DNA of 36,254 nucleotides from a virus (Duplodnaviria > Heunggongvirae > Uroviricota > Caudoviricetes): IMG/VR virus record IMGVR_UViG_2531839432_000012, one strand, 5' to 3'. The notes under the pieces are model-generated. The model had not been told where the DNA came from, made no database searches, and worked only from the letters and a program-made list of their open reading frames with translations. Below are positions 1-36,254 of the stretch, piece after piece (the stretch's first letter is position 1; each line of letters starts with the position of its first letter). The position numbers were made by a program, and so were the translations under genes.

Positions 1-981
1 CTAACGTCTTGCTTTTAACAATAACCAGATAAACACCGGCGCACCCAACGTTGCGGTGACCACGCCAATAGGCAGCTCTGCGGCAGCTAATGCCAGGCGC
101 GCTACAATATCGGCCAGCAGCAATGCGCTCGCCCCTGCCAGCGCGCAGCCGGGAAGTAATACGCGATGATCGGTTAAACCACACAGCCGGAGAATATGTG
201 GGATCACCAGACCAATAAAGCCGATAGCACCCGCCAGCGCCACACTGACGCCAACCATCCAGCCGGTCGCTGCCACCAGCACATTGCGCCAGAACCACAG
301 GGGTAAACCCAGTTGCCGCGCCGAGATCTCGCCAAGTGCTAACATATTCATCGGCCTGGACTGACAACAGATCCACAACAACACGGGGATCAATGCCAGC
401 ATCAGCCAGCTTTGCCGCCAGTCTACGCCGCCAAAACCGCCCATCATCCAGTACATCAGCTGACGCAAATCAACTGAGGTGGAAAAGTAGATAGCCCACG
501 TCATTAGTGCGCTACAGATAATCCCTAATGCAACGCCAGCCAGCAATAACCGACTGGTCGAAAGATGACGACGGGCGAAACGTAAGAGTATTAAAGTGAT
601 GATAAGCGCGCCAGCAATCGCACACAGCCCTAGCGCCCAGTTGGGGAGTTGCCCTTGCCCAAGTAATACCGCGGCGATAAGCCCCACGCCTGCGCCGTTA
701 GAGACGCCAAGTAGTCCAGGTTCTGCCAGAGGATTTTCAAACAACGCCTGCATTACAGCGCCGGATATAGCCAGCGCCGCACCAACCAGCAATACAGCCA
801 GCGTACGTGGCAGGCGAATTTGCCAGACGAACAGTTCGCCACGAGGAGTAAACCAGTCACCTGGCGAGATCCATTGTTCACCGGCGCAAAGGCTTAAGAG
901 AAGCGCCAGCAGCATCAAAACTGACAGGCATAATAACCAGCGAATATTTTGTCGCTGTTGTTGGCGGGCAAGTGTCAGCAT
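1..981 (-). CDS. btuC: Vitamin B12 ABC transporter permease BtuC (complete, 326 aa; stop codon at 1..3)
   Basis: Full-length ORF; translation is a polytopic membrane permease matching remembered E. coli BtuC essentially end to end ([17 protein letters not shown]...LLKARR). Recognition from memory, not a search. Confidence 0.9.
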
Positions 982-1039
982 GGTATCCGTTCTGCTGAAG
1001 TGTCATGGCGTTGATTTTACGGTGACTCTTCGACAGTGA

Positions 1040-1064
1040 AAAGAAAAAAGGCCGCAGAGCGGCC
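1040..1064 (-). terminator. Rho-independent terminator for leftward transcripts (stem GGCCGC/GCGGCC, loop AGA, followed on the minus strand by a U-run)
   Basis: Seen in sequence: aaaagaaaaaaGGCCGCagaGCGGCC on the plus strand; lies between the end of the 1174..1728 gene and the btuC start. Confidence 0.5.
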
Positions 1065-1173
1065 ATAAACACAAGCAAAAATCAATAAGTTAGATAATTA
1101 TCAAAGACTTACAGACACACAAAAACACAGCCAACCACAACAAATAACAGGGATGTGGTCAATTTGTGGATCA

Positions 1174-1728
1174 TCAGCCAACAAATTTAGCAACAAATAC
1201 AGCAACCGCCGCCGTGAAAATGGTTGTGCATACTGGCACAATAATGCCACTCCAACGCCACTTCGTATTATCATCAACCTTGTCAACCCGCCGATTCATC
1301 TCATCCATAATCTTGTCAAAGCGTTTATCCATCGCTTCGGTAAGCTCACCCTTCAGGCTGTTAATGTCTGATTTGAGCTGCTCTTTCAGGTGAGCTGTAT
1401 CAGATTTAAGCTCACCTTTCAGATTCGCAATATCGCATTTAAGATCACCTTTCAGATGAGCAATGTCTGCTTTGAGCTCACCTTTCACCTCACCAACATC
1501 AGCTTTGGTTGAGAGGTTTGTAGTGCGTTCAGTAAGCGTCGCAAGGTCGTTTCTTGTTAGCGATAAATCACCTTCGAGTCGCTCAATTCGCCTTTCAAGT
1601 TTATCTGACATTCCGCCTCCACTACTGCCGCCATCGCCGCCATGATAAAGCACATCACGCTCAGAATGCGACATACTACCTGCTGAATTACCGAAAAGGT
1701 TTCTTGCTGCATTACCCATTTTCACCAT
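1174..1728 (-). CDS. Hypothetical tail-anchored coiled-coil protein: Gly-rich N-terminus, 11-residue tandem repeats, C-terminal transmembrane helix; start may be ATG at 1719 or 1611 rather than 1728
   Basis: ORF of 184 aa; repeats KGELKADIAHL/KGDLKCDIANL/KGELKSDTAHL/KEQLKSDINSL; hydrophobic C-terminus IIVPVCTTIFTAAVAVFVAKFVG; the ATG at 1719 overlaps the stop of the upstream gene (ATGGGTAA). Confidence 0.6.
   Translation of the reverse strand: MVKMGNAARNLFGNSAGSMSHSERDVLYHGGDGGSSGGGMSDKLERRIERLEGDLSLTRNDLATLTERTTNLSTKADVGEVKGELKADIAHLKGDLKCDIANLKGELKSDTAHLKEQLKSDINSLKGELTEAMDKRFDKIMDEMNRRVDKVDDNTKWRWSGIIVPVCTTIFTAAVAVFVAKFVG
1339..1503. repeat. About five tandem 33-bp in-frame repeats encoding the 11-residue coiled-coil repeats of the 1174..1728 protein
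   Basis: Seen in sequence: repeated units of the form atttaagctcacctttcagat...gcaat with minor substitutions. Confidence 0.6.
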
Positions 1729-2212
1729 CCTGCGCTTTGTCTTTCTCCAACCACTTCAGCACCGCAGACGTACGGTAAAGGCTCAGGTAACCACAATTCA
1801 GGCAATGCAGCGTGTAATAAGTTTTGCGCATATCAGGTATGCTCTTAACATCACCAAAAAAAGTATAAGATACATAATGCTTTATGTTCTCTTTAATTAA
1901 CTCACTCTGCTCCTCCAAGGGTAGATTGTTAAAATTTTCTGGTTTCTTATTTTTATCCCAACAAAGATCCATACTTTCAGGAATAGATAATCGCGACGAT
2001 CCACATGAAGGGCAGACACTGGAGACCCCCTTCTCAGACAAGAAACGGAAGAAGATTTCTGGCGTAATCTCCATCAGCCGCTCTTTATGTTTTTTGACAC
2101 GACTCATCGACTTCTTATTGATTTCATCAGCTTCTTCTTTGCATTTATCTTCTATATATTTCGATAGTAAATAGTCATATAACTCTTTTTTTGTAGGTTT
2201 TTTTATTTCCAT
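1712..2212 (-). CDS. Hypothetical low-GC protein with two CxxC pairs (CPSC ... CLNC), putative zinc ribbon; translationally coupled to int
   Basis: 166-aa ORF; visibly AT-rich compared with neighbours; start codon 2 nt downstream of the int stop with GGGAGG 9 nt upstream (inside the int 3' end); Lys/Glu-rich. Confidence 0.6.
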   Translation of the reverse strand: MEIKKPTKKELYDYLLSKYIEDKCKEEADEINKKSMSRVKKHKERLMEITPEIFFRFLSEKGVSSVCPSCGSSRLSIPESMDLCWDKNKKPENFNNLPLEEQSELIKENIKHYVSYTFFGDVKSIPDMRKTYYTLHCLNCGYLSLYRTSAVLKWLEKDKAQDGENG

Positions 2213-2214
2213 AG

Positions 2215-3192
2215 TTACATTCCTCCCAAGGGATTAAACCTCACCGCATCCTGCAAGTAATCCGGCGCAAGATGGGCATAAATCATCGTTGTCTGAATCT
2301 TTGCGTGCCCCAGAATTTTCTGGAGCGTCAGAATATTGCCGCCGTTCATCATGAAATGACTGGCGAATGTGTGGCGCAGCGCATGAACAGCCTGGCCGTC
2401 GGGAACATCAGGTGCGACCGTTTTGATGACATCGCGAACCAATGGATAATCCAGCGTCGGAAACACCAGTTTCCCGCCCCGTTTTTTGATCTTTTCAAAC
2501 AGGCTTTCAGAAATAGGAACGGTACGGTTTTTGCTGTTCTTCGTTTTTGAAAAAGTGATTCGACAATGAAGAACACGGCGCTGCTCCAGTGCCACTACCT
2601 CGCCCCATCGCGCCCCGGTCGACAGAAGGATTTCGACAGCCAGCCGTTCATCAGGATTTTCAGCCAGTGCATCCAGCAACTGAACACATTCAGACTTACT
2701 CAGATATCCCATTTCGCGCTCGTTAACCTTCATTCCTTTAAGGCCTTGAACGGGGTTATCGTTAAGAAAATGGCCGGATGAGATGAGTGCGGTAAACATC
2801 GCGCTTAACGCCCCAATCTCTCGATTAATAGTGCTGGGCTGTATCCCCTGCTCTATCCTGGACACACGTAGCTCGGTGAGCATCGTTGTATTAAGTTTAT
2901 GCACGCACGGGTCATCCATTGCCTCACTCAAGCGCAGCAATTTAAGGCGCGTGTTATGCCCTGACTTCATTAGCTGGCCGTGGTATTTCCACCACAAGTC
3001 AATAAGCACTGACAGCGGACGGCGATCAATGGAGTTTCCTTTCCACTCATTGTTATGCTGTTGCGCCAGCACCCACCGCTCATATAAAACTGCATCCGAT
3101 TTCGTTTTAAATTTTTTACGAATGCGTTTGCCTTTACGCCCCTCCGGGCGCATGTCAAGAAGATACCCTCCCGGAATTGATTTTATGCTCAT
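2215..3192 (-). CDS. int: P2-family tyrosine integrase (start taken at MSIKSIPGGY, not the longer ORF start at 3342)
   Basis: Translation has the phage-integrase C-terminal signature (HALRHTFASHFMMNGGNILTLQKILGHAKIQTTMIYAHL) and N-terminal arm-binding region; position next to the repressor as in P2. Confidence 0.85.
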   Translation of the reverse strand: MSIKSIPGGYLLDMRPEGRKGKRIRKKFKTKSDAVLYERWVLAQQHNNEWKGNSIDRRPLSVLIDLWWKYHGQLMKSGHNTRLKLLRLSEAMDDPCVHKLNTTMLTELRVSRIEQGIQPSTINREIGALSAMFTALISSGHFLNDNPVQGLKGMKVNEREMGYLSKSECVQLLDALAENPDERLAVEILLSTGARWGEVVALEQRRVLHCRITFSKTKNSKNRTVPISESLFEKIKKRGGKLVFPTLDYPLVRDVIKTVAPDVPDGQAVHALRHTFASHFMMNGGNILTLQKILGHAKIQTTMIYAHLAPDYLQDAVRFNPLGGM

Positions 3193-3241
3193 TCGTGAAA
3201 CCCCAGCGTTACAAGACCACCATGCCCCCAGCGCTCCATGA

Positions 3242-3553
3242 TTAGCCGGGCTGTGTGCCAGTCTTGCGGGGTTTTTGAGAAGGCGATGTGCTTTTTGGCC
3301 CATCAGGGGAGAGAGACGGACTGATCTGCCCAGCAGCCTCATTTGTTTCGTTACTCATCAACCACGTGGTGTATTTTTTAAAGTTCGGATGCATTGTGAT
3401 TTTCAGTAAAACCTCCGTCCCCACACCTCTAATACCAGTCTCATATTGCTTAACTGTACCAACCGCAATACCTATTGAATCCGCGAACTTTGCCTGGCTA
3501 AGTCCCTCAGATTCTCGAATTGCTTTTAGCTTCTTTGATATCTCTATTGACAT
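3242..3553 (-). CDS. Immunity repressor (P2 C-like), small HTH protein (start taken at MSIEISKKLKAIRESEGLSQ)
   Basis: HTH-like segment LSQAKFADSIGIAVGTVKQYETG; divergent from the early operon as in P2 int-C / cox. Confidence 0.7.
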   Translation of the reverse strand: MSIEISKKLKAIRESEGLSQAKFADSIGIAVGTVKQYETGIRGVGTEVLLKITMHPNFKKYTTWLMSNETNEAAGQISPSLSPDGPKSTSPSQKPRKTGTQPG

Positions 3554-6236: not shown

Positions 6237-6558
6237 GAAACCAGAGCATGCACACACAAAAAAACCGCTTGCCACGCCGCAATCAGTCAGGTTACATTTC
6301 CGCTGCACCTCATAAAACGGGTGCCGGGATTTCCACCCCGCTGACTAGCAAAGCGCACAACCGCGCCAGCGGTTTTTTTGTGCGTACCGTATCGCCACGT
6401 CTTTTTCGCACACGAATTATGGTGGGGCGTATGGGGCCGACTTCGGTCGGGCCGGGTTCTTTGCTAGCCGGTTGTGGAAACCCTGTACGTCTCACCACCC
6501 CGAGTTTTCCACCTCTGGATGGTGAGTTTTTAAAACTTACTAGCAAAGAGGCCACACC
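6237..6558 (+). other. Structured non-coding region inside the early operon with three terminator-like hairpins and ACTAGCAAAG-type repeats; candidate attenuator or small RNA
   Basis: Seen in sequence: long-range inverted repeat AAAAAAACCGCTTG (about 6259..6272) / CAGCGGTTTTTTT (about 6367..6380); GC hairpin GGCCGAC-TTCG-GTCGGGCC near 6433..6452; hairpin CTCACCA...TGGTGAG followed by TTTTT near 6502..6535. Confidence 0.3.
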
Positions 6559-6861: not shown

Positions 6862-7251
6862 ATGATTGACGCTCATGACTTCACAAGATGGGTGCGCACA
6901 CAGGACACCCGTCTGGCTCCCGTTCTTCAGGGATTATTTGATCTCTACATCCGTGGTCGTGACAACAGAGCACGCACCACAAAACCGGAGAATGCAGACC
7001 CCCTTTATTTCACAGTAGACGACTGCTACCGCGTGGACTTCACACCACACGGGCTGGCGTTGCACTGCCTGACACCACACGGAGAATCACTGCTGGCGTA
7101 TTACGACTCCCCGGCCTCCGTATTTGCGGCAATGCTGGCGCATCGCACTGCTGGCGGGTGTGCCTCGCTGAGTGAATACACCGCTGAATTTAACCGCCTT
7201 TCTGCCCTCTTCTCGCAGGAGTGGCAGCGCGTGACGGGATACCAGCCATGA
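6862..7251 (+). CDS. Hypothetical early protein (129 aa) immediately upstream of the replication gene
   Basis: ORF; its stop overlaps the A start (ATGA). Confidence 0.5.
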   Translation: MIDAHDFTRWVRTQDTRLAPVLQGLFDLYIRGRDNRARTTKPENADPLYFTVDDCYRVDFTPHGLALHCLTPHGESLLAYYDSPASVFAAMLAHRTAGGCASLSEYTAEFNRLSALFSQEWQRVTGYQP

Positions 7252-10088
7252 GTGAGTTTGCATGGAGCTGGAATGAACCACGGCCAGCCATTGATCCGGC
7301 CAGATTTACGGAGCACAGGCAGGAAACTGAAACCGACCTGCAACGCGCCATCCGTTACTACCTTGAGGCAGACAAAAAGGCTCTGGAAGAACAGGAAGCG
7401 AAGGAGGAAGCCTTTTTCGCACAATCCACCGTGGGTAAAAAACTCATGGCATCCCTTGAGGAAGCCGGACAGCGTGAAAAGCTGGCACAAAGCATCATCA
7501 GCAAGCGTCAGGCAACAGAACAAGACCCGGTGGCCCGTGCTTTTGCCACACTGAAGGTGCTTCCCGTTTATCTGCGTGAACCTCTGAGCCGCCACCTCTC
7601 TTTCCTGCGCAAAAAACAGGAAGCCGATCGCCAGAAAGGCAAAAAGAGCTGGCAGGCTGAACGCTACGCGCGCGGAACCCTGCGCAAAATATTCCAACGT
7701 CTGGACCGCACCGATCACCGCTGGCTGACACCGGGTTATCGCTCCCTTGCCGGACGCGAACGCCTGGACGATTTGCTTTACCTACCGCAGCTCAACAAAC
7801 ACCAGATACAGACGCTGGCCACCATGACGGCGGCGATGTTCAGCAGCACCTTCGAAAAACTCTGCGATGGCTTTGGCGCGACTGATGGCGAACTGACCAT
7901 GGATGTAACGCTGAAGGCGTATCAGATGCTGGCCCGCATGGCGTTACACCTGCACGCCATGCCTCCACATTATGACGCACTGACAACAGACAAAAACCGG
8001 AGGAACGAACCGGACACGGAGCTGCTGCCGGGCGCAATCCTTCGCCTGACCTGTGCGGAATGGTGGAAACGCAAACTGTGGCTGTTACGTTGCGAGTGGA
8101 GAGAAGAACAACTCCGCGCCGCCTGTCTGGTTTCCAGAAAAACATCACCCTATCTGAGCCAGGACGCGTTAAGCGAGTTTCGCGCACAGCGCGACAAAAC
8201 ACGCGATTTCCTGAAAAGTTTCATGCTGGAAAATGAAGACGGGTTTACGATTGATCTCGAGACGGTGTATTACGCGGGAGTAAGTAACCCGGTTCACCGT
8301 AAGGCAGAAATGATGGCCACAATGAAGGGGCTGGAACTTCTGGCCGAAGCCCGTGGCGACAAAGCGGTGTTTCTGACTGTCACCTGCCCGTCAAAATACC
8401 ACGCCACAACAGAGAACGGTCATCCGAATCCCAAATGGAACGGGGCCACCATGCGCGACTCCAGCGATTACCTGGTTAACACGTTTTTTGCAGCGGTCCG
8501 CAAGAAACTGAACCGCGATGGCCTGCGCTGGTATGGCATCCGCACGGTGGAGCCTCACCATGACGGCACCGTGCACTGGCATATGATGGTCTTTGCTCAT
8601 CCGGAAGAAATCGACAGCATTGTGGCCATCACCCGCGATATTGCCATTCAGGAAGACCGCCACGAGCTGGGCGATGACATAACTCCGCGTTTTAAGGCGG
8701 AGTACGTAGACGGCTCAAAAGGCACACCAACCAGCTATATCGCGACCTACATCGGAAAAAACCTGGACAGCCGCGCCGTGGATGGCATCGACCCGAAAAC
8801 GGGCAAGCCACGCGTTGAGCACGAAACCGGAAAATCAATGGCAGAGAGCGTGGAACGCGCCATCGGCTGGGGGCGCCTTCACCGGGTCCGCCAGTTCCAG
8901 TTCTTTGGTATCCCCTCCCGTCAGGTGTGGCGTGAACTGCGTCGCCTTGCCAGCCAGATGGCACGCAACCCGGAAGGCCCGCAACGGCTGAAGGATGACG
9001 CAATGGACTCGGTTCTTGCTGCCGCTGATGCCGGATGTTTTGCCACCTACATAGAGAAACAGGGCGGCGTACTTGTTCCACGCAAAGACTACCTGATTCG
9101 CACCGCCTACGACCTCGCAGATGAGCTGAACGATTACGGCGAACAGAGCGTACAGATTTACGGGATCTGGTCACCACTCATCGGGGAATCCTCCCGTGTG
9201 TGCACGCACCCGGATAACTGGAAGCTGGTAAGACGTAAACCTGAAGCAGAAGACATCGCCCGCGAAAATGGTTTTGACCTTCAGGGCGGCCCTGCCGCCC
9301 CTTGGACTCGTGGCAATAACTGTCCCCGTGTACAGGAAACGGACAACAACGGGACAGAACAGCCGGAAGAACGGCCAGCACCGTGGCCGCAGCTCCCTGA
9401 CGGCGTTGAAGTGAACGTATGGATGCGCTCACTGAAACGGCACGAACGCCGGGCGCTGATGCGTTCGCTTCGTGACAAACAGGCAAAAAACAGCAGTGAT
9501 GAAATGCAGAGCTGGACACAGAGCCGCAAACAGCAGCGGCCTTTGCCTGATAACCACGAATTACTCGCTAAAGAATGGCGGGAATCTGCCGAATCTCTCG
9601 GCCTGCATATCGGTGAACAGCAGATGCAGCACCTGTTACGGGGCGGCAGCCTGTACGTTGACGGCAGCATCATTGCACCGCAGGGATTTGAAATTGTACG
9701 CAAACCGGATACCCGCCCGGACAGCCGAATCACGCAGTTCTGGCAGCGCCTGAGCCGTAATCACGGCGTAAGCAGCACGGAGATCCGCCATAACCCGGTC
9801 GCCAGCTATCTGGAACAGCTGGGGGCATCAGCCCCCGAAGCCGCCGCACGCCTGGCATCCACACTTCAGCAGGACCAGAACACCATGAAAACCCCCGTTA
9901 CCGTGCTTTCTGACATGCTGCGCGCCATCCGTGACGCAGAGCACGCACAGAGAATCAGTGAAACCACTGAACGCGCCCACCGCAAAGCAGACCTGCTGCG
10001 GGGTGGCTTGACCCGTGGGAACAAAAAACAGACAGAAACGGGATCCACGAATCCCGTAAATGACCAAAAAACGCGCAGCGATATATGA
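7248..10088 (+). CDS. A: Replication initiation protein (P2 gpA-like rolling-circle replication endonuclease), 946 aa; start taken at MSEFAWSW
   Basis: Very large early ORF at the position of P2 A after the early small genes; conserved-looking core (HxH-type segment VHWHMMVF, YIATYIGKN); identification by size, position and motifs, not a search. Confidence 0.75.
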   Translation: MSEFAWSWNEPRPAIDPARFTEHRQETETDLQRAIRYYLEADKKALEEQEAKEEAFFAQSTVGKKLMASLEEAGQREKLAQSIISKRQATEQDPVARAFATLKVLPVYLREPLSRHLSFLRKKQEADRQKGKKSWQAERYARGTLRKIFQRLDRTDHRWLTPGYRSLAGRERLDDLLYLPQLNKHQIQTLATMTAAMFSSTFEKLCDGFGATDGELTMDVTLKAYQMLARMALHLHAMPPHYDALTTDKNRRNEPDTELLPGAILRLTCAEWWKRKLWLLRCEWREEQLRAACLVSRKTSPYLSQDALSEFRAQRDKTRDFLKSFMLENEDGFTIDLETVYYAGVSNPVHRKAEMMATMKGLELLAEARGDKAVFLTVTCPSKYHATTENGHPNPKWNGATMRDSSDYLVNTFFAAVRKKLNRDGLRWYGIRTVEPHHDGTVHWHMMVFAHPEEIDSIVAITRDIAIQEDRHELGDDITPRFKAEYVDGSKGTPTSYIATYIGKNLDSRAVDGIDPKTGKPRVEHETGKSMAESVERAIGWGRLHRVRQFQFFGIPSRQVWRELRRLASQMARNPEGPQRLKDDAMDSVLAAADAGCFATYIEKQGGVLVPRKDYLIRTAYDLADELNDYGEQSVQIYGIWSPLIGESSRVCTHPDNWKLVRRKPEAEDIARENGFDLQGGPAAPWTRGNNCPRVQETDNNGTEQPEERPAPWPQLPDGVEVNVWMRSLKRHERRALMRSLRDKQAKNSSDEMQSWTQSRKQQRPLPDNHELLAKEWRESAESLGLHIGEQQMQHLLRGGSLYVDGSIIAPQGFEIVRKPDTRPDSRITQFWQRLSRNHGVSSTEIRHNPVASYLEQLGASAPEAAARLASTLQQDQNTMKTPVTVLSDMLRAIRDAEHAQRISETTERAHRKADLLRGGLTRGNKKQTETGSTNPVNDQKTRSDI

Positions 10089-10164: not shown

Positions 10165-11124
10165 ATGAAAATTTGTATCGACGACGGCTCCACCAACATC
10201 AAGCTGGCATGGACTGAGAACGGCGAACGCCGCAACGCCATCAGCCCGAACAGCTTCAAGTCGGAATGGTCTGCGCCGTTCGGTGGCACGCAGCCCGCGA
10301 ACTATATGCTTGATGGCGTGCGCTATGGTTTTGATCCGGTCAGCGATCGCTTTGTCCAGACGACCGACACGCAATACCAATACAGAGATGTGAATGTCAT
10401 TGCCATTCATCACGCGCTGGTCAAATCAGGCATCACGCCACAGGAGGTGGATGTGGTTGTCACCCTGCCACTGAGCGAGTATTTCGACACAAACGCACAG
10501 CCGGACATGGCCAACATCAACCGCAAAAAAGCGAACGTTATGCGCCCGGTGGAGTACCAGAACGGCGAAGCATTCACTATCCGTAACGTGCGGGTTATGC
10601 CTGAATCCATTCCGGCTGGCTTTAAGGCACTGGCTGACATGAGTCCGTTTGAATCCCTGCTGATTGTGGATTTGGGCGGAACCACGCTGGATGTGGCAAA
10701 GGTTCAGGGGCAACTGGCAGGTATCAGCCAGGTGTTTTGCGATCCACACGTAGGCGTTTCTCTGATGGCCGATGCCGTACTGTCGGTGATGGCCACTAAC
10801 GGTATGCGCACCAGTCACCACATCGCCAATACCATTATCGAACATCGCCATGATGAAGCCTGGCTGCGCCAGCACATCCACAATGACGCGCATTACGCCA
10901 GCCTGATGGCGGTTATTCGTGAAAAGGAAGAAACACTGAAACAACGCGTGATCCGCGCGCTGGCGGGTTTTTCGGGTTACGGTCGGGTGATGGTTGTCGG
11001 TGGCGGGGCGGAGATTGTGGCACCCGCTATCCGCGAAGCCTGCGGAGTTAATGCGACTTTCATCGCGGACGGGGTGCCACAGTTTGCTCTGGTTAATGGG
11101 CTGTACGCAATGGACAAGGAGTAA
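10165..11124 (+). CDS. parM: Actin-like segregation ATPase, ParM/StbA family
   Basis: Translation matches remembered plasmid R1 ParM over its length, including IDDGSTNIKL, VMPESIPAG, DLGGTTLD, GGGAE; good RBS. Confidence 0.85.
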   Translation: MKICIDDGSTNIKLAWTENGERRNAISPNSFKSEWSAPFGGTQPANYMLDGVRYGFDPVSDRFVQTTDTQYQYRDVNVIAIHHALVKSGITPQEVDVVVTLPLSEYFDTNAQPDMANINRKKANVMRPVEYQNGEAFTIRNVRVMPESIPAGFKALADMSPFESLLIVDLGGTTLDVAKVQGQLAGISQVFCDPHVGVSLMADAVLSVMATNGMRTSHHIANTIIEHRHDEAWLRQHIHNDAHYASLMAVIREKEETLKQRVIRALAGFSGYGRVMVVGGGAEIVAPAIREACGVNATFIADGVPQFALVNGLYAMDKE

Positions 11125-11503: not shown

Positions 11504-11836
11504 ATGCAACACATTGACAGAGAAAAAGCGCAGCGACTGATTGAGCGGATGGAAGCGCTGGCGAAAGAAGAAAATGTCAACATCCAAAAAATAGCTGAAT
11601 GTGGCCAGATAGTTCTTCGTCGTGAAAAAGACCTCAAACAACTGATGTCTGGCGAAACCAGCAAAACATGGACTTCAGGCGAGGAGACGGTTTATTGCAG
11701 TTTCTGCAATAAATCCCAGCACGAAGTCACAAAGGTGATTGCCGGACCGTCTGTTTACATCTGCAATGAGTGCGTGGATTTGTGCAATGAAATTATCAGG
11801 AAAGAAGTGACAGACAAAAAGGAAAAAAACGCATGA
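11504..11836 (+). CDS. ClpX-type C4 zinc-finger domain protein (110 aa), first gene of a five-gene coupled operon
   Basis: C-terminal half [37 protein letters not shown] closely resembles the N-terminal zinc-binding domain of ClpX; RBS GGGGGA upstream. Confidence 0.7.
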
Positions 11837-13907: not shown

Positions 13908-13932
13908 CAGCCCCATCACGGGGCTGTTTTTT
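13908..13932. terminator. Bidirectional terminator-like hairpin (CAGCCCCATCACGGGGCTG + TTTTTT) between the convergent 13377..13901 gene and portal gene Q
   Basis: Seen in sequence; overlaps the last codons of Q. Confidence 0.5.
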
Positions 13933-14962
13933 CATCAAGAAGAGCATAAGAATTAAAACGGATCACCTCTTCACCAAGCCAGTCATTGATGTGCTTCATG
14001 GCCTCCATGACAGGCATCAGCTCGTTAATTGCGTAAACCCGCGCTGCCTTCTCCACATCACCAAACGCACTTTTTTCGCCCGGCATCGCCCCCATCAGTT
14101 GCGGCGGAACGCGGTGCGAAGCCAGCACATCATCACGGGATGCCGCCTTAACATTCATGAACTCATCCTTTGCGGTGATCTGCTGGAACGGCAAAATTTG
14201 CACCCCCTCTTTGCCCCCGTTGGGCGCATGAATGAGCACGTTTTTAAACGCACCACCACCACGTGCCCCCTGTAGCGTTTCCTTCAGGGAGTCCATGCTT
14301 TCGCGGTTTACCTGCGCTGCACCGATGTAGATGATGCACCCGGCGTGGGATCCGTTGTCGTAGTACAGCTTTCTGAACATGTCCGCCGAATGAGACAGGC
14401 TGGCCGAGAGTAATGCGCCAAGATATTCCGGCATGCCGTAGATTTCCTGGTTAATATCCGGATTCATCAGGTGGCACACTTTGCCAGGGCGAAACTGAAA
14501 CGCGTCCTTGCCATCCTGTACATACCACCATGATTCAAGATCGCTTCCGCGTCGCATGTATTTCGCCAGGGCGTGCCGTAATTTAAGCGGTTCGCCGAGC
14601 ATATTGCTTCGAAGCTCAAGGAATGCGTTACCGAATACAAACCAGTCCAGCGCCAGCGCCGAGAAATCCTGCCGGGAAAGCAGCGGGGGCGGAATATAGC
14701 AACCGAGCAATACATTGCGCTTAAAGTAAAGCGCAGACTGATGCCAGGACGTTTGCCGGGCGGCTCTTGCCAGACCGTACCAGTCCACCGGGGTTTCATA
14801 CCACCGCCCGTTATCAGCACAGTACATATTGTCCAGCAAATCATGCCCGGTCAGGCGATAAGGACCATCAAATGTGAATGCACTGAGCGATGATTCTTTC
14901 CTGAGCGCATCAGCGAGATCAATGCGTGAACTCATGCGCACTTTTTTATTTTTTCTGCTCAT
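13916..14962 (-). CDS. Q: Portal protein (P2 gpQ-like)
   Basis: 348-aa ORF directly downstream of and overlapping the large terminase gene, divergent from the O-N-M-L operon as in P2; size matches gpQ. Confidence 0.8.
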   Translation of the reverse strand: MSRKNKKVRMSSRIDLADALRKESSLSAFTFDGPYRLTGHDLLDNMYCADNGRWYETPVDWYGLARAARQTSWHQSALYFKRNVLLGCYIPPPLLSRQDFSALALDWFVFGNAFLELRSNMLGEPLKLRHALAKYMRRGSDLESWWYVQDGKDAFQFRPGKVCHLMNPDINQEIYGMPEYLGALLSASLSHSADMFRKLYYDNGSHAGCIIYIGAAQVNRESMDSLKETLQGARGGGAFKNVLIHAPNGGKEGVQILPFQQITAKDEFMNVKAASRDDVLASHRVPPQLMGAMPGEKSAFGDVEKAARVYAINELMPVMEAMKHINDWLGEEVIRFNSYALLDEKTAP

Positions 14963-34653: not shown

Positions 34654-34847
34654 ACAACTTAGATGCATTAGCCCTGACATTTGCTAACGCGCTTACAGCA
34701 AGAATCATAACCAATCTGACAGCCTACCCGGTGTCAAAATCAGAAGAGCCTTACATTAGAATATGTTAATTTGTAGCAAACAAATTTACACACAAATGAT
34801 TACTGCTGAAATAGCCCCCATAAATGCCATGTCAAAGGATCCATGTT

Positions 34848-35513
34848 ATGAATATGCAAATTTTTATCGCACCAGCAGCCACAGTTGCTGCAGTCTGCCT
34901 TGCTGCATATTTTGCTTTACGAAATGAACGTAAAAAGAAAGCACTTGAGATTAGAACAACTCAACTAGATCGAATATCAGAGCTAGTAAACCGAGCATCT
35001 ACCAATTTGATGCAATATACAGGTACTCTTGCCTCTATACTGGAAGCGCACGCCAAAGATAATTATCTACCGAACAAAAAATTTGACATTAATGTAATTA
35101 GCAAATGGAAAGATTGCCTCGATGAGAGTGAGGTCTGGGCGATTGATATACAGCAACTAAGAACATGTCAGCACAGTCTGGAGTTTCATCGTGAAAAAGA
35201 ATGGGCTGAATGGAAAAAAATAATTCCACCATTACTTGATAAAATTAACCAATTTTTTCTCATATCTAAGCTAGGGCAACCTGTTACGTTTATAAATGGC
35301 CAAAACAAAACAGCTGATGAACTACTTGTTTTCTCAAGATATTTGAGAAAACAAACAGCAGAAATTGAATCAGTACGTCAGCTGTTACTTTCTCAAATGA
35401 GAGAGGAATTCATCGAGTTAACTAGCTTTGAACCTGTCACAATGTTTAGCTTATTTAAATCAATAAAGAAAAATGTCATGCAATTTTTCTGTATCAGTGC
35501 TCTTAAAAATTGA
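34848..35513 (+). CDS. Low-GC hypothetical protein with an N-terminal transmembrane helix and ~190-aa soluble domain; candidate accessory gene inserted between D and ogr
   Basis: ORF with RBS AAAGGA 8 nt upstream of ATG 34848; visibly AT-rich compared with flanking genes; predicted TM segment IFIAPAATVAAVCLAAYFAL; followed by a terminator. Confidence 0.6.
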   Translation: MNMQIFIAPAATVAAVCLAAYFALRNERKKKALEIRTTQLDRISELVNRASTNLMQYTGTLASILEAHAKDNYLPNKKFDINVISKWKDCLDESEVWAIDIQQLRTCQHSLEFHREKEWAEWKKIIPPLLDKINQFFLISKLGQPVTFINGQNKTADELLVFSRYLRKQTAEIESVRQLLLSQMREEFIELTSFEPVTMFSLFKSIKKNVMQFFCISALKN

Positions 35514-35662: not shown

Positions 35663-35923
35663 ATGTTCCGTTGTCCGCTTTGTGGCGCATCTGCCCGTAT
35701 CCGCACCAGTCGTCCGGAAAATGATTCAAACACCGTGCGGCAAAAGTATTACCAGTGTAACAACCTGGAATGCGGCGTATGCTTCTCAACACTGGAAGCT
35801 TTCCATAAATTCACATCGAAACACGCCTCCGGCATCCACTCTTCAGAAGGTATCCCGTGGCATGAGCTGCCAGCTTCACACAGGGGAAACAATCAGATGA
35901 GTTTGCCTTTACCTCAGAATTAA
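35663..35923 (+). CDS. ogr: Late gene transcription activator, Ogr/Delta zinc-finger family
   Basis: N-terminus MFRCPLCGASARIRTSR...YYQCNNLECGVCF matches the Ogr Cys4 pattern (CPLC...C..C); RBS AAGGGAGG; position after D. Confidence 0.8.
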   Translation: MFRCPLCGASARIRTSRPENDSNTVRQKYYQCNNLECGVCFSTLEAFHKFTSKHASGIHSSEGIPWHELPASHRGNNQMSLPLPQN

Positions 35924-35983: not shown

Positions 35984-36196
35984 ATGGTCGGAGGGAATAC
36001 CCGAAGGCCAGATGTGGAAAGGCCCCGGAAAACATCTCTGTTTAACCGAGGCCCTAACCGCATTACCTTGACAAGTGAAAGGTTAGCGCCTCTCCGGAAA
36101 AGGAGCAAGTGCTATGTCGCAAAAATCGCTTACGGCCATCACGTTCTGCGTGACGGCAATCCTCATCATCTGGATGTTGCACGGTTCGCTGTGTGA
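35984..36196 (+). CDS. Possible mok-like overlapping reading frame of the hok locus
   Basis: 70-aa ORF overlapping most of the hok ORF in another frame, as in hok/mok/sok loci; inference only. Confidence 0.3.
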   Translation: MVGGNTRRPDVERPRKTSLFNRGPNRITLTSERLAPLRKRSKCYVAKIAYGHHVLRDGNPHHLDVARFAV

Positions 36197-36254
36197 AATA
36201 CGGATGAGCTTCTGGGGAGCGGAGTTTGCGGCGTTCTTACAGTGTAAGCAGTAA
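36114..36254 (+). CDS. hok: Hok/Gef-family type I toxin (46 aa, MSQKSLTAITFCVTAILIIWMLHGSLCEIRMSFWGAEFAAFLQCKQ), complete with stop at the window end
   Basis: Hand-translated small ORF with RBS AAAGGAG; single TM helix followed by the conserved SLCEIR and AAF motifs of Hok-family toxins (closest to HokA from memory). Confidence 0.7.
   Translation: MSQKSLTAITFCVTAILIIWMLHGSLCEIRMSFWGAEFAAFLQCKQ

What the first reader, a model, noticed from the sequence alone, without database searches (positions are those of the whole stretch)
1174..2212. Two-gene cargo cassette translationally coupled to the 3' end of the integrase
Canonical P2-type prophages end with int next to the attachment site. Here two genes follow int on the same strand with no room for an attachment site: the first start codon lies 2 nt after the int stop and its RBS (GGGAGG) is inside the int coding sequence; the second gene overlaps the first. 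Gene 1 (1712..2212) is markedly AT-rich and has a split CxxC...CxxC zinc ribbon. Gene 2 (1174..1728) is a tail-anchored membrane protein with 11-residue coiled-coil repeats. A terminator at 1040..1064 ends the unit before btuC. Composition and position suggest a horizontally acquired accessory module (superinfection exclusion, abortive infection or other defence), but nothing in the sequence identifies its function.
Basis: partly seen in the sequence, partly recalled or inferred. Interest (0 to 1): 0.65.

Follow-up and report, generated by a model that had tools for sequence, protein, structure and literature searches.

The report
Prophage zinc-ribbon plus membrane-stalk gene pair
Two overlapping genes between the integrase and the attachment site of this P2-like E. 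coli prophage form a conserved, swappable module, a small zinc-binding protein plus a membrane-anchored repeat stalk of the Borrelia Bdr/DUF1640 type, that sits in lysogen-expressed accessory slots of three kinds of prophage; its function is untested and anti-phage defence is only the best guess.

Summary
Gene 1 (1712..2212, minus strand) starts 2 nt after the int stop. Gene 2 overlaps it by 8 nt, so its start is ATG 1719, not 1728. The attachment site is not missing.

Gene 1 founds an orphan family with four invariant Cys, acidic proteins and no match to any known fold. Gene 2 is a tail-anchored DUF1640/Bdr-type stalk with xELKxDIxxhK 11-residue repeats of variable copy number.

The pair recurs in about 20 loci: after int in P2-like phages, after cI in lambdoid prophages, and as a self-contained accessory insert ("moron") among siphophage tail genes.

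In the 306 E. coli genomes carrying this prophage lineage, the slot exchanges cassettes at sharp borders. One recombinant swaps exactly gene 1 plus the first 29 codons of gene 2.

A conserved Met preceded by GGAGG inside the Gly-rich linker suggests a second, shorter isoform.

Function is inferred only. A lysogen-expressed anti-phage role (exclusion or abortive infection) is most likely (about 0.45), with no homology to any known defence system. Toxin-antitoxin, host-physiology and regulatory roles remain open.

The parts
1040..1064 (-). attL core. It is a 25-bp duplicate of the host ihfA terminator (AAAGAAAAAAGGCCGCAGAGCGGCC on the + strand). Read on the minus strand it is a GC hairpin plus T-run that ends the int-gene1-gene2 transcript before btuC.
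   Evidence: Host homology in 5426/5426 E. coli genomes stops at 1064. The identical 25-mer lies beside ihfA at attR of the sister prophage in O103:H2 12009. Terminator scan.
1065..1173 (.). Phage-side att arm. It is 109 bp with GC 0.33 and is kept at about 97-99% identity in the lysogens examined, whatever cargo they carry. It sets the left border of the cassette.
   Evidence: Variants C and D share only 900..1174 and 2222..3378 with the window.
1174..1719 (-). Gene 2, long isoform, 181 aa. It has a disordered N-peptide (1-29), a Gly-rich linker (about 27-36), one long helix (38-147) with a beta-layer motif LSTKAD and four xELKxDIxxhK hendecads, and a C-terminal TM anchor (150-180).
   Evidence: The start was chosen from the conserved 8-11 nt overlap with the gene 1 stop in all homologous loci.
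1174..1611 (-). Gene 2, putative short isoform, 145 aa. It would start at the internal ATG 1611 and lack the N-peptide. This is the form PGAP annotates as 'DUF1640 domain-containing protein'.
   Evidence: PGAP coordinates. A Met at this position follows the linker in every locus examined. GGAGG lies 4-9 nt upstream in 9 of 12 divergent loci. GGA codons are enriched in the linker (18/66 versus 3/54, p=0.0017). Inferred, not shown.
1616..1620 (-). GGAGG Shine-Dalgarno-like element inside the Gly-linker codons, 4 nt before ATG 1611.
1383..1506 (-). 33-bp tandem DNA repeat (3.2-3.8 copies) encoding the 11-residue repeats. Copy number differs among homologues, giving protein lengths that step by 11 aa.
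   Evidence: The Salmonella copy has one more repeat.
1633..2222 (-). Exchange unit of recombinant 'variant B': gene 1 plus the first 29 codons of gene 2. It is replaced as a block, while the stalk/anchor stays 99% identical in protein (flanking DNA 98%).
   Evidence: blastn borders against L030 and L003. Translations. Identity table.
1712..2212 (-). Gene 1, 166 aa. It is an acidic soluble protein with a split C4 zinc ribbon (C67, C70, C137, C140), the conserved helix TPEIFFRFL, and a C-terminal helix VLKWLEK plus an acidic tail.
2221..2227 (-). Ribosome-binding site of gene 1 (GGGAGGA), located inside the last codons of int.
2215..3192 (-). P2-type tyrosine integrase. It is the upstream gene of the same transcription unit.
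   Evidence: PF24624 plus PF00589 and phrog_1.
3242..3550 (-). C-type HTH immunity repressor, the first gene of the lysogenic (Pc) operon.
   Evidence: PF01381 and phrog_147. The operon logic is taken from P2 (PMC3936717).

Best explanation
SHOWN.
- The two genes are one conserved, mobile, two-protein module carried only by temperate phages, in accessory ('moron') positions.
- Gene 2 encodes a tail-anchored inner-membrane protein of the DUF1640/Bdr superfamily. It has a cytoplasmic stalk of about 110 residues, built from xELKxDIxxhK hendecads whose number varies.
- At the stalk's distal end are a Gly-rich hinge and a short variable peptide.
- Gene 1 encodes a small acidic C4 zinc-ribbon protein with no known fold relatives.
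- Gene 1 is always made from the cistron immediately upstream, with an overlapping stop and start.
- Gene 1 is exchanged and diverges together with the gene 2 N-peptide, not with the stalk.

INFERRED.
- The zinc-ribbon protein caps the N-peptide at the tip of a probably trimeric stalk.
- In this prophage the pair is transcribed in the lysogen from Pc as C-int-gene1-gene2 and terminated at the att core.
- An internal start after the linker also makes a headless stalk that could regulate or dilute the full-length form.

MOST LIKELY ROLE (inference from position and diversification only).
- The pair is a lysogen-expressed anti-phage device, working by superinfection exclusion or abortive infection.
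- The hypervariable zinc-ribbon/peptide head would be the specificity or sensor part.
- The membrane-anchored stalk would be the effector or scaffold.
- This is analogous in logic to lambda RexA/RexB.
For: Module conservation. The pair occurs with 8-11 nt overlap, or direct abutment, in the following contexts:
- P2-like prophages of E. coli, Salmonella and Klebsiella, the last at a different att site.
- Lambdoid/Rac-like prophages, directly after cI on the same strand and ending in a terminator.
- Siphophage tail clusters, next to the major tail, tape-measure and tail-fibre genes, with its own promoter-like site and terminator.

Gene 1 family. It has 85 representative clusters, with four Cys and one Trp invariant. 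The AF2 model has pLDDT 85.

Gene 2 family.
- The beta-layer motif has T/K/D invariant.
- The repeat unit is the same as in Borrelia Bdr, Liberibacter phage SC2 gp27 and an Aliivibrio plasmid DUF1640 protein.

Hotspot behaviour.
- 306/5426 E. coli genomes carry the lineage. 23 of them carry this cassette, and the others carry divergent alleles of the same module or an unrelated single gene, with borders exactly at the gene 2 stop and the int stop.
- The slot is listed as a minor P2 defence hotspot (PMC13586616).

Co-variation. Gene 1 identity tracks N-peptide identity (Spearman 0.45) but not stalk identity (-0.04). Variant B swaps exactly window 1633..2222.

Operon. There is no promoter-like site or terminator between int and gene 2. 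C and int form the Pc lysogenic operon in P2.
Against: - No experiment bears on function. The defence reading rests on guilt by location.
- The co-variation of gene 1 with the N-peptide could reflect simple physical linkage of adjacent DNA.
- The function of the related Bdr proteins is unknown after 25 years. DUF1640 relatives include mitochondrial scaffold proteins. Stand-alone stalk proteins sit in ordinary chromosomal contexts.
- One gene 1 homologue (Morganella) lacks a typical partner.
- The short isoform and the trimeric state are inferred only.
Confidence: 0.45

Rival explanations
1. Addiction or toxin-antitoxin-like module. The tail-anchored protein would be a membrane-damaging toxin, kept inactive by the upstream, translationally coupled zinc-ribbon protein bound to its N-peptide. 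The pair would stabilise the prophage, and could secondarily abort infections.
For: - Two small overlapping genes, with the soluble acidic partner first and the membrane protein second.
- Cognate-pair style co-diversification.
- The other prophage end carries a Hok/Gef toxin gene, so addiction cargo next to att is precedented here.
Against: - There is no similarity to any TA family.
- Gene 1 has no recognisable DNA-binding autoregulatory domain and is acidic.
- In P2-like phages the pair has no promoter of its own.
- A single TM helix with almost no periplasmic tail is not an obvious pore.
Confidence: 0.15
2. Lysogenic-conversion or host-physiology factor. The pair would be a membrane-tethered scaffold, like mitochondrial MCUR1/CCDC90B or the E. 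coli tail-anchored YqjD/ElaB proteins, that recruits a host component through the zinc-ribbon head and changes envelope, stress or growth properties of the lysogen rather than phage sensitivity.
For: - Gene 2 is a DUF1640/Bdr-type protein.
- Eukaryotic family members are described as scaffold factors in the abstracts retrieved.
- Borrelia Bdr proteins are inner-membrane proteins produced during vertebrate infection.
- The comparison with YqjD/ElaB rests on my own knowledge, not on a tool result.
Against: - The fast allelic turnover of the head, with cassette swapping inside one prophage lineage, is more typical of conflict systems than of host-adaptation factors.
- The module is restricted to phage contexts.
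Confidence: 0.2
3. Phage-internal regulator. The pair would sequester or release a phage regulator or recombination factor at the membrane, tuning lysogeny maintenance, induction or lysis timing of its own phage. The two isoforms would act like a holin/antiholin or SieB/Esc dual-start pair.
For: - The pair is tightly placed in lysogeny operons, 2-3 nt after int or about 90 nt after cI.
- There is a conserved internal Met with a GGAGG signal.
- There are weak PHROG hits of the C-terminal part to holin and XhlA-like families (E about 0.006-0.03).
Against: - The same module sits in tail-gene clusters with its own promoter and terminator.
- It is dispensable. About a third of the sampled lysogens of this lineage carry an unrelated single gene instead.
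- A core regulator would not be swapped out in this way.
Confidence: 0.1

Closest known systems
Borrelia Bdr (Borrelia direct repeat) proteins / DUF1640 (PF07798, CCDC90-like) superfamily
   Same: - Same 11-residue repeat unit: xELKxDIxxhK here, SDLKSDIMSVK in B. miyamotoi Bdr, TELKQDIANVR in Liberibacter phage SC2 gp27.
- Variable copy number, and a single C-terminal membrane anchor preceded by K/T-W.
- Carried on prophages and plasmids.
- The DUF1640 beta-layer motif [aliphatic]-A/S-T-K-x-[DE] is present and invariant.
- Bdr proteins are inner-membrane associated.
   Different: - There is no folded N-terminal head. Instead there is a roughly 30-residue disordered peptide plus a Gly-rich hinge.
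- There is an obligatory upstream zinc-ribbon partner, not seen next to the bdr gene, the SC2 DUF1640 gene or the chromosomal stand-alone homologue examined.
- The Pfam score of the window protein is below the gathering threshold (26.7 versus 33.5 bits).
- The function of the Bdr/DUF1640 bacterial proteins is itself unknown.
Lambda RexA/RexB (and the cI-linked abortive-infection operons in general)
   Same: - Two genes co-transcribed with the lysogeny repressor, one soluble and one membrane protein.
- The lambdoid copies of this module sit exactly there and end at a terminator.
   Different: - No sequence or fold similarity.
- The membrane partner has one TM helix and a long coiled coil. RexB, from my own knowledge, is polytopic.
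- No phenotype is known.
Moron-encoded exclusion proteins such as HK97 gp15, in the tail-gene moron slot (named from my own knowledge)
   Same: - In IMG/VR siphophage contigs the module is inserted among tail genes: before the tape-measure gene in L021, and with its own promoter-like site and terminator in L026.
- One product is an inner-membrane protein.
   Different: - It is a two-gene unit with no homology to those proteins.
- Nearly all of the protein is cytoplasmic, so a block at the periplasmic face is unlikely.
P2-like defence hotspots (old/tin at the A-Q site, fun/Z, and the minor int-att hotspot of PMC13586616)
   Same: - It occupies the int-att slot.
- It is polymorphic among otherwise 98% identical flanks.
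   Different: The cargo is not recognised by PADLOC. I found no paper naming it.
Dual-start membrane proteins: P22/lambda SieB-Esc and lambda S105/S107 holin-antiholin (named from my own knowledge)
   Same: There is an in-frame internal start codon with its own Shine-Dalgarno. It would give a truncated isoform of a phage membrane protein.
   Different: There is no homology. The second isoform is only predicted here.

Membership tests
DUF1640 / CCDC90-like (PF07798) / Bdr superfamily (gene 2) | Profile match at or above the Pfam gathering score | tested here: inconclusive
   The window protein scores 26.7 bits against a cut-off of 33.5. Close homologues carry precomputed PF07798 hits, and PGAP names them DUF1640/CCDC90.
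DUF1640 / CCDC90-like (PF07798) / Bdr superfamily (gene 2) | Beta-layer motif [aliphatic]-A-T-K-[polar]-[DE] at the start of the stalk (PMC4786415) | tested here: met
   The motif is LSTKAD. T71, K72 and D74 are invariant in 19 homologues. YATKED and YASKED occur in distant partners.
DUF1640 / CCDC90-like (PF07798) / Bdr superfamily (gene 2) | Tandem 11-residue repeats of variable copy number with an xELKxDI core | tested here: met
   33-bp DNA repeat. Homologue lengths step by 11 aa. The unit is the same in Bdr, SC2 gp27 and the Aliivibrio protein.
DUF1640 / CCDC90-like (PF07798) / Bdr superfamily (gene 2) | Single C-terminal transmembrane anchor | tested here: met
   The Kyte-Doolittle 19-residue maximum is 2.43 at residues 159-177. 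AF2 helix at 150-180.
DUF1640 / CCDC90-like (PF07798) / Bdr superfamily (gene 2) | Folded N-terminal head domain (the head-neck-stalk-anchor layout described for MCUR1/CCDC90B, from my own knowledge) | tested here: not met
   Residues 1-35 are predicted disordered, with pLDDT below 50. The sequence there is a variable peptide plus a Gly-rich linker.
DUF1640 / CCDC90-like (PF07798) / Bdr superfamily (gene 2) | Trimeric coiled coil | not testable with these tools
   Only monomer prediction was possible. PDB 6h9l, a weak profile hit (E 6e-4), is deposited with three chains of this sequence.
Lambda RexAB-type abortive infection | Homology to RexA or RexB | tested here: not met
   No hit in Pfam, PHROGs, PADLOC or NCBIfam.
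Lambda RexAB-type abortive infection | Co-transcription with the immunity repressor in the lysogen | tested here: inconclusive
   The position fits: after cI in L017, L018 and L020, and after C-int here. No transcript data are available.
Lambda RexAB-type abortive infection | Phage-triggered loss of membrane potential or abortive phenotype | not testable with these tools
   This needs an experiment.
Moron (autonomous accessory insert in a phage genome) | Present or absent between otherwise homologous flanks, with atypical composition | tested here: met
   Sharp borders at 1174/1175 and 2221/2222, with flanks at 97-99% identity. GC is 0.38 and 0.46 against 0.53.
Moron (autonomous accessory insert in a phage genome) | Own promoter and terminator | tested here: inconclusive
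   Both are present in the tail-cluster copy L026. In the window there is no promoter-like site of its own, and the terminator is the att core.
Known anti-phage defence systems (PADLOC-DB 2.0) | Profile match to a system component | tested here: not met
   There are only low-scoring coiled-coil matches (LmuB, ZorA tails) for gene 2 and a 14-bit hit for gene 1.
C4 zinc-ribbon proteins (gene 1) | Two CxxC knuckles conserved across the family | tested here: met
   C67, C70, C137 and C140 are invariant in 59 sequences at 22-58% identity to the window protein. Metal binding itself was not tested.
C4 zinc-ribbon proteins (gene 1) | Assignment to a named zinc-ribbon family or known fold | tested here: not met

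The most novel reading that the evidence does not exclude
The pair is the founding example of an undescribed family of prophage-borne, membrane-tethered anti-phage systems. A hypervariable zinc-ribbon sensor would sit on the tip of a Bdr-type trimeric stalk of adjustable length at the cytoplasmic face of the inner membrane. An internally initiated headless isoform would set the threshold. Alleles would be exchanged as 'head' cassettes (gene 1 plus N-peptide) on a common stalk. If so, it would also give the first functional handle on the Borrelia Bdr/bacterial DUF1640 proteins, whose role has been unknown since the 1990s.
Probability: 0.3. Interest if true: 0.75.

Novelty: new variant of a known kind. 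Interest (0 to 1): 0.55.

Why it matters
- Temperate phages concentrate their conflict genes in a few lysogen-expressed slots. This module occupies three such slots in three phage architectures and is invisible to current defence catalogues, so it is a well-defined candidate for a new exclusion or abortive-infection mechanism.
- Its anatomy offers unusually clean experiments in E. coli. Natural chimeras already separate 'head' from 'stalk'. Repeat number varies naturally. A synonymous GGA-to-GGC change would test the second isoform.
- Gene 2 shares its repeat unit and anchor with Borrelia Bdr proteins and with DUF1640 proteins of Liberibacter phages. A function found here would bear on a long-unexplained protein family.
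- The work also shows an annotation problem. PGAP truncates gene 2 to the internal start and misses gene 1 altogether in some genomes.

Tried and rejected
- **Locus searches with profiles.** The search for related loci with diverse alignments failed for lack of a conserved 7-10 column stretch. The close alignment found only one species-representative genome, a Salmonella enterica strain with a 98% identical cassette.
- **Unavailable library.** The afdb50 fold library was unavailable.
- **Gene 1 in phage and plasmid collections.** Gene 1 has no tblastn hit in INPHARED phages or PLSDB plasmids.
- **Rejected as compositional.** Apolipoprotein A-I/A-IV, Mer2, LmuB, ZorA, SMC and keratin hits of gene 2 reflect 11-mer or coiled-coil bias.
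- **Rejected reading: ATG 1728 as the gene 2 start.** Homologues begin at the second ATG.
- **Rejected reading: PGAP's 145-aa form as the only product.** The upstream frame is open and starts at the gene 1 stop in every divergent locus examined.
- **Rejected reading: missing or displaced attachment site.**
- **Rejected reading: an int-specific function.** The module also follows cI and sits in tail clusters.
- **Literature.** Searches for the RefSeq accessions and PHROG numbers found nothing.
Full report
**Setting.** The window holds the 5' part of E. coli btuC (1..981, minus strand) followed by a nearly complete P2-like prophage.
- The prophage genes include the C-type repressor (3242..3550), the integrase (2215..3192), gpA (7221..10088), the portal (13916..14962) and ogr (35663..35923).
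- The finding concerns the two minus-strand genes between int and btuC.

**Check of the observation.** Every stated sequence feature is present.
- int stops at 2217..2215, and gene 1 starts at 2212 behind a GGGAGGA inside int.
- GC is 0.379 for gene 1 and 0.456 for gene 2, against 0.493 for int and 0.529 for the rest of the prophage.
- Gene 1 carries CxxC at residues 67-70 and 137-140.
- Gene 2 has one strong hydrophobic segment at its C terminus. A 33-bp tandem DNA repeat at 1383..1506 encodes its 11-residue repeats.
- A GC hairpin (1064..1050) plus a T-run follows.

**Three corrections are needed.**
- Start of gene 2. In all homologous loci gene 2 begins at the equivalent of ATG 1719 (MGNA...), overlapping the gene 1 stop by 8-11 nt or abutting it. 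The product is therefore 181 aa. PGAP instead calls a 145-aa form from ATG 1611.
- Identity of the terminator. Homology to every one of 5426 complete E. coli genomes runs up to 1064 and stops there. The same 25-mer, AAAGAAAAAAGGCCGCAGAGCGGCC, lies next to ihfA at the other end of the sister prophage in O103:H2 12009. The 'terminator' is therefore the att core, a duplicated ihfA terminator. The phage restores ihfA termination at attR and uses the copy at attL to end its own operon.
- Location of the attachment site. It is not displaced. It lies after the cassette, with a conserved 109-bp phage arm (1065..1173).

**Gene 1.**
- No Pfam, NCBIfam or PADLOC family reaches threshold. Only phrog_4293, of unknown function, matches (E 1e-22).
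- A word-indexed search found 14 enterobacterial clusters. An exhaustive profile search found 85 representative clusters of 100-180 aa.
- In 59 diverse members (22-58% identity to the window protein) the four Cys and W154 are invariant.
- Conserved elements are a helix (TPExFxxFL), the two knuckles and a C-terminal helix (VLxWxE) followed by an acidic tail. The segment between the knuckles and the N-terminal extension vary.
- The family is acidic (median pI 5.3) and has no hydrophobic segment.

**Gene 2.**
- AF2 gives a disordered N terminus (1-35), one helix from 38 to 147 and a second helix from 150 to 180.
- The helix opens with LSTKAD, which fits the beta-layer motif that defines the DUF1640 stalk (PMC4786415). 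T, K and D are invariant.
- It continues with GELKADIAHLK / GDLKCDIANLK / GELKSDTAHLK / EQLKSDINSLK.
- Homologues differ in length by multiples of 11 residues (101 up to 192 aa), which means repeat-number variation.
- The same repeat unit and the same K/T-W-anchored C-terminal helix occur in Borrelia Bdr proteins, Liberibacter phage SC2 gp27 and an Aliivibrio plasmid DUF1640 protein.
- Bdr proteins are inner-membrane proteins of the cp32 prophages whose function is still unknown (PMC10016077).
- The Pfam PF07798 score of the window protein is sub-threshold (26.7 versus 33.5 bits).
- The folded 'head' of the eukaryotic members is absent. I therefore file gene 2 as a headless member of the DUF1640/Bdr superfamily, not as a CCDC90 orthologue.

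**The pair is a conserved module.** Wherever I could read the context of a gene 1 relative, with one exception, the next cistron encodes the same kind of protein: a short peptide, then a Gly-rich linker, then Met, then a coiled coil, then a TM anchor.
- (a) P2-like prophages, directly after int and before att. These are E. coli and Salmonella at btuC, Klebsiella at dadX with a different integrase lineage (hhalign 98%), and further IMG/VR contigs.
- (b) Lambdoid/Rac-like prophages of Salmonella and Rahnella. The pair lies directly after the cI repressor on the same strand, and in the Salmonella locus it is closed by a terminator. This is the rexAB position.
- (c) Siphophage contigs. The pair is inserted among tail genes (major tail protein, tape measure, tail fibre). 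In the copy scanned (L026) it has its own promoter-like site and terminator, the classical moron anatomy.
- The exception is a Morganella homologue near type I-F cas genes, with only a 55-aa hydrophobic ORF downstream.
- Stand-alone stalk proteins without the peptide or the partner exist in ordinary chromosomal contexts.

**Cassette exchange.** 306 of 5426 complete E. coli genomes carry this prophage lineage at ihfA/btuC.
- The flanks, the att arm and int, are 97-99% identical, but the slot varies.
- Variant A is the window form, found in 23 genomes.
- Variant B (L030, L003) has window 1633..2222 replaced. That segment is gene 1 plus the first 29 codons of gene 2. The replacement is a Klebsiella-type gene 1 homologue, left unannotated by PGAP, with a different N-peptide. 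The stalk stays 99% identical in protein.
- Variant C (L029) has 1175..2221 replaced by a very divergent pair of the same two families.
- Variant D (L002, and by matching span and annotation also E2348/69 and O104:H4) has the same borders but a single unrelated 131-aa gene, phrog_14142.
- From the evenly spaced sample of 60 rows, roughly a quarter look like variant C and a third like variant D. This is an estimate, since only L029 and L002 were read.
- The left border is exactly the gene 2 stop and the right border is the int stop.

**Head and stalk.** Across 13 pairs, gene 1 identity correlates with N-peptide identity (Spearman 0.45) but not with stalk identity (-0.04).
- Together with variant B, this suggests that gene 1 protein and the N-peptide are a cognate pair mounted on an interchangeable stalk.
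- The caveat is that adjacency alone could produce this pattern.
- The complex could not be modelled.

**A probable second isoform.** A Met follows the Gly-rich linker in every locus examined.
- The linker contains GGAGG 4-9 nt upstream of that Met in 9 of 12 divergent loci.
- GGA is enriched among linker Gly codons (18/66 versus 3/54 elsewhere in the gene, Fisher p = 0.0017).
- In the window this is GGAGG at 1620..1616 and ATG at 1611.
- The upstream frame is nevertheless open, and starts at the gene 1 stop, in all lineages. Both a full-length form and a headless form are therefore likely. This is inferred, not shown.

**Expression.** I found no promoter-like site or terminator between int and the att core on the minus strand. 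In P2, C and int form the Pc 'lysogenic operon' (PMC3936717). The cassette is therefore most simply the distal part of that operon and is expressed in the lysogen. This is an inference.

**What it does.**
- Shown: it is a phage-borne, lysogeny-linked, rapidly exchanged two-protein module, with one soluble zinc-ribbon component and one tail-anchored stalk.
- Inferred: both act at the cytoplasmic face of the inner membrane as a complex.
- The positions (behind int, behind cI, tail morons), the composition, the cassette turnover and the head diversification are the hallmarks of phage-versus-phage conflict genes.
- I therefore rate a superinfection-exclusion or abortive-infection role as most likely (about 0.45). 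In that model the head acts as the specificity element and the anchored stalk as the effector or scaffold.
- No homology supports this, and PADLOC is negative.
- The rivals are a toxin-antitoxin-like addiction pair (0.15), a host-physiology scaffold in the manner of other DUF1640 or tail-anchored proteins (0.2), and a regulator of the phage's own cycle (0.1).

**Novelty.**
- The slot and the idea of cargo there are known.
- Gene 2 is a new, headless variant of a known but functionally obscure superfamily.
- Gene 1 is an orphan family.
- The obligate pairing, the head-cassette exchange and the conserved internal start have not, as far as I could find, been described.
- I rate it a new variant of a known kind (a lysogen-expressed prophage accessory module), with moderate interest.

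Noticed in passing
window 36114..36254 (+); L012 7239..7379: A Hok/Gef-family toxin ORF (MSQKSLTAITFCVTAILIIWMLHGSLCEIRM...) lies after ogr and before attR, so both ends of the prophage carry cargo next to the att sites. attR itself is beyond the window end.
   Followed up: partly
window 10165..11124 (+) and 11504..11836 (+): The main P2 hotspot between gpA and the portal holds a ParM-type actin-like segregation protein (PF06406 plus PF21523, E 1e-82) and a ClpX-type C4 zinc-finger protein (PF06689, E 3e-18), plus several orphans. None has a PADLOC hit. A plasmid-partition gene in an integrating P2-like phage is unusual.
   Followed up: partly
window 6305..6379 and 6415..6502 (+): Rfam finds isrK (63.8 bits) and C4 antisense RNA (78.8 bits) side by side in the early region. 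This pairing looks like a P1/P7-type antisense (antirepressor) control element sitting in a P2-like prophage; that attribution rests on my own knowledge.
   Followed up: no
window 34824..35513 (+); L012 4947..6530: A 229-aa orphan with no Pfam, PHROG or PADLOC hit sits in the slot just upstream of ogr. The sister prophage in O103:H2 12009 has a GmrSD-type restriction endonuclease in the corresponding slot, which makes this another variable cargo site.
   Followed up: partly
L030 848..1325; L003 2213..2690: In variant-B lysogens RefSeq/PGAP leaves the 129-aa zinc-ribbon gene unannotated. In most genomes it also truncates the DUF1640 gene to the internal ATG.
   Followed up: yes
L017 4377..4931; L018 4377..4907: The Salmonella lambdoid partner protein carries a C-terminal (PA)n tail of variable length after its TM helix. 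I presume this is a periplasmic spacer. It is absent from the E. coli form.
   Followed up: no
L035 3001..4072: The Salmonella enterica strain s1 chromosome carries a 98% identical gene 1, and a gene 2 with one extra 11-residue repeat, at the same btuC site. This points to recent transfer of the prophage between genera.
   Followed up: partly
L002 5322..5717 (-): The alternative single-gene cargo of this slot is a 131-aa protein in phrog_14142 (unknown function). By matching span and annotation it is also the cargo in E2348/69 and O104:H4. It has no Pfam or PADLOC hit.
   Followed up: partly
L019 1803..2231: A Morganella gene 1 homologue lacks the usual stalk partner. It lies about 1.1 kb upstream of csy1-4 (type I-F Cas) genes.
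   Followed up: no
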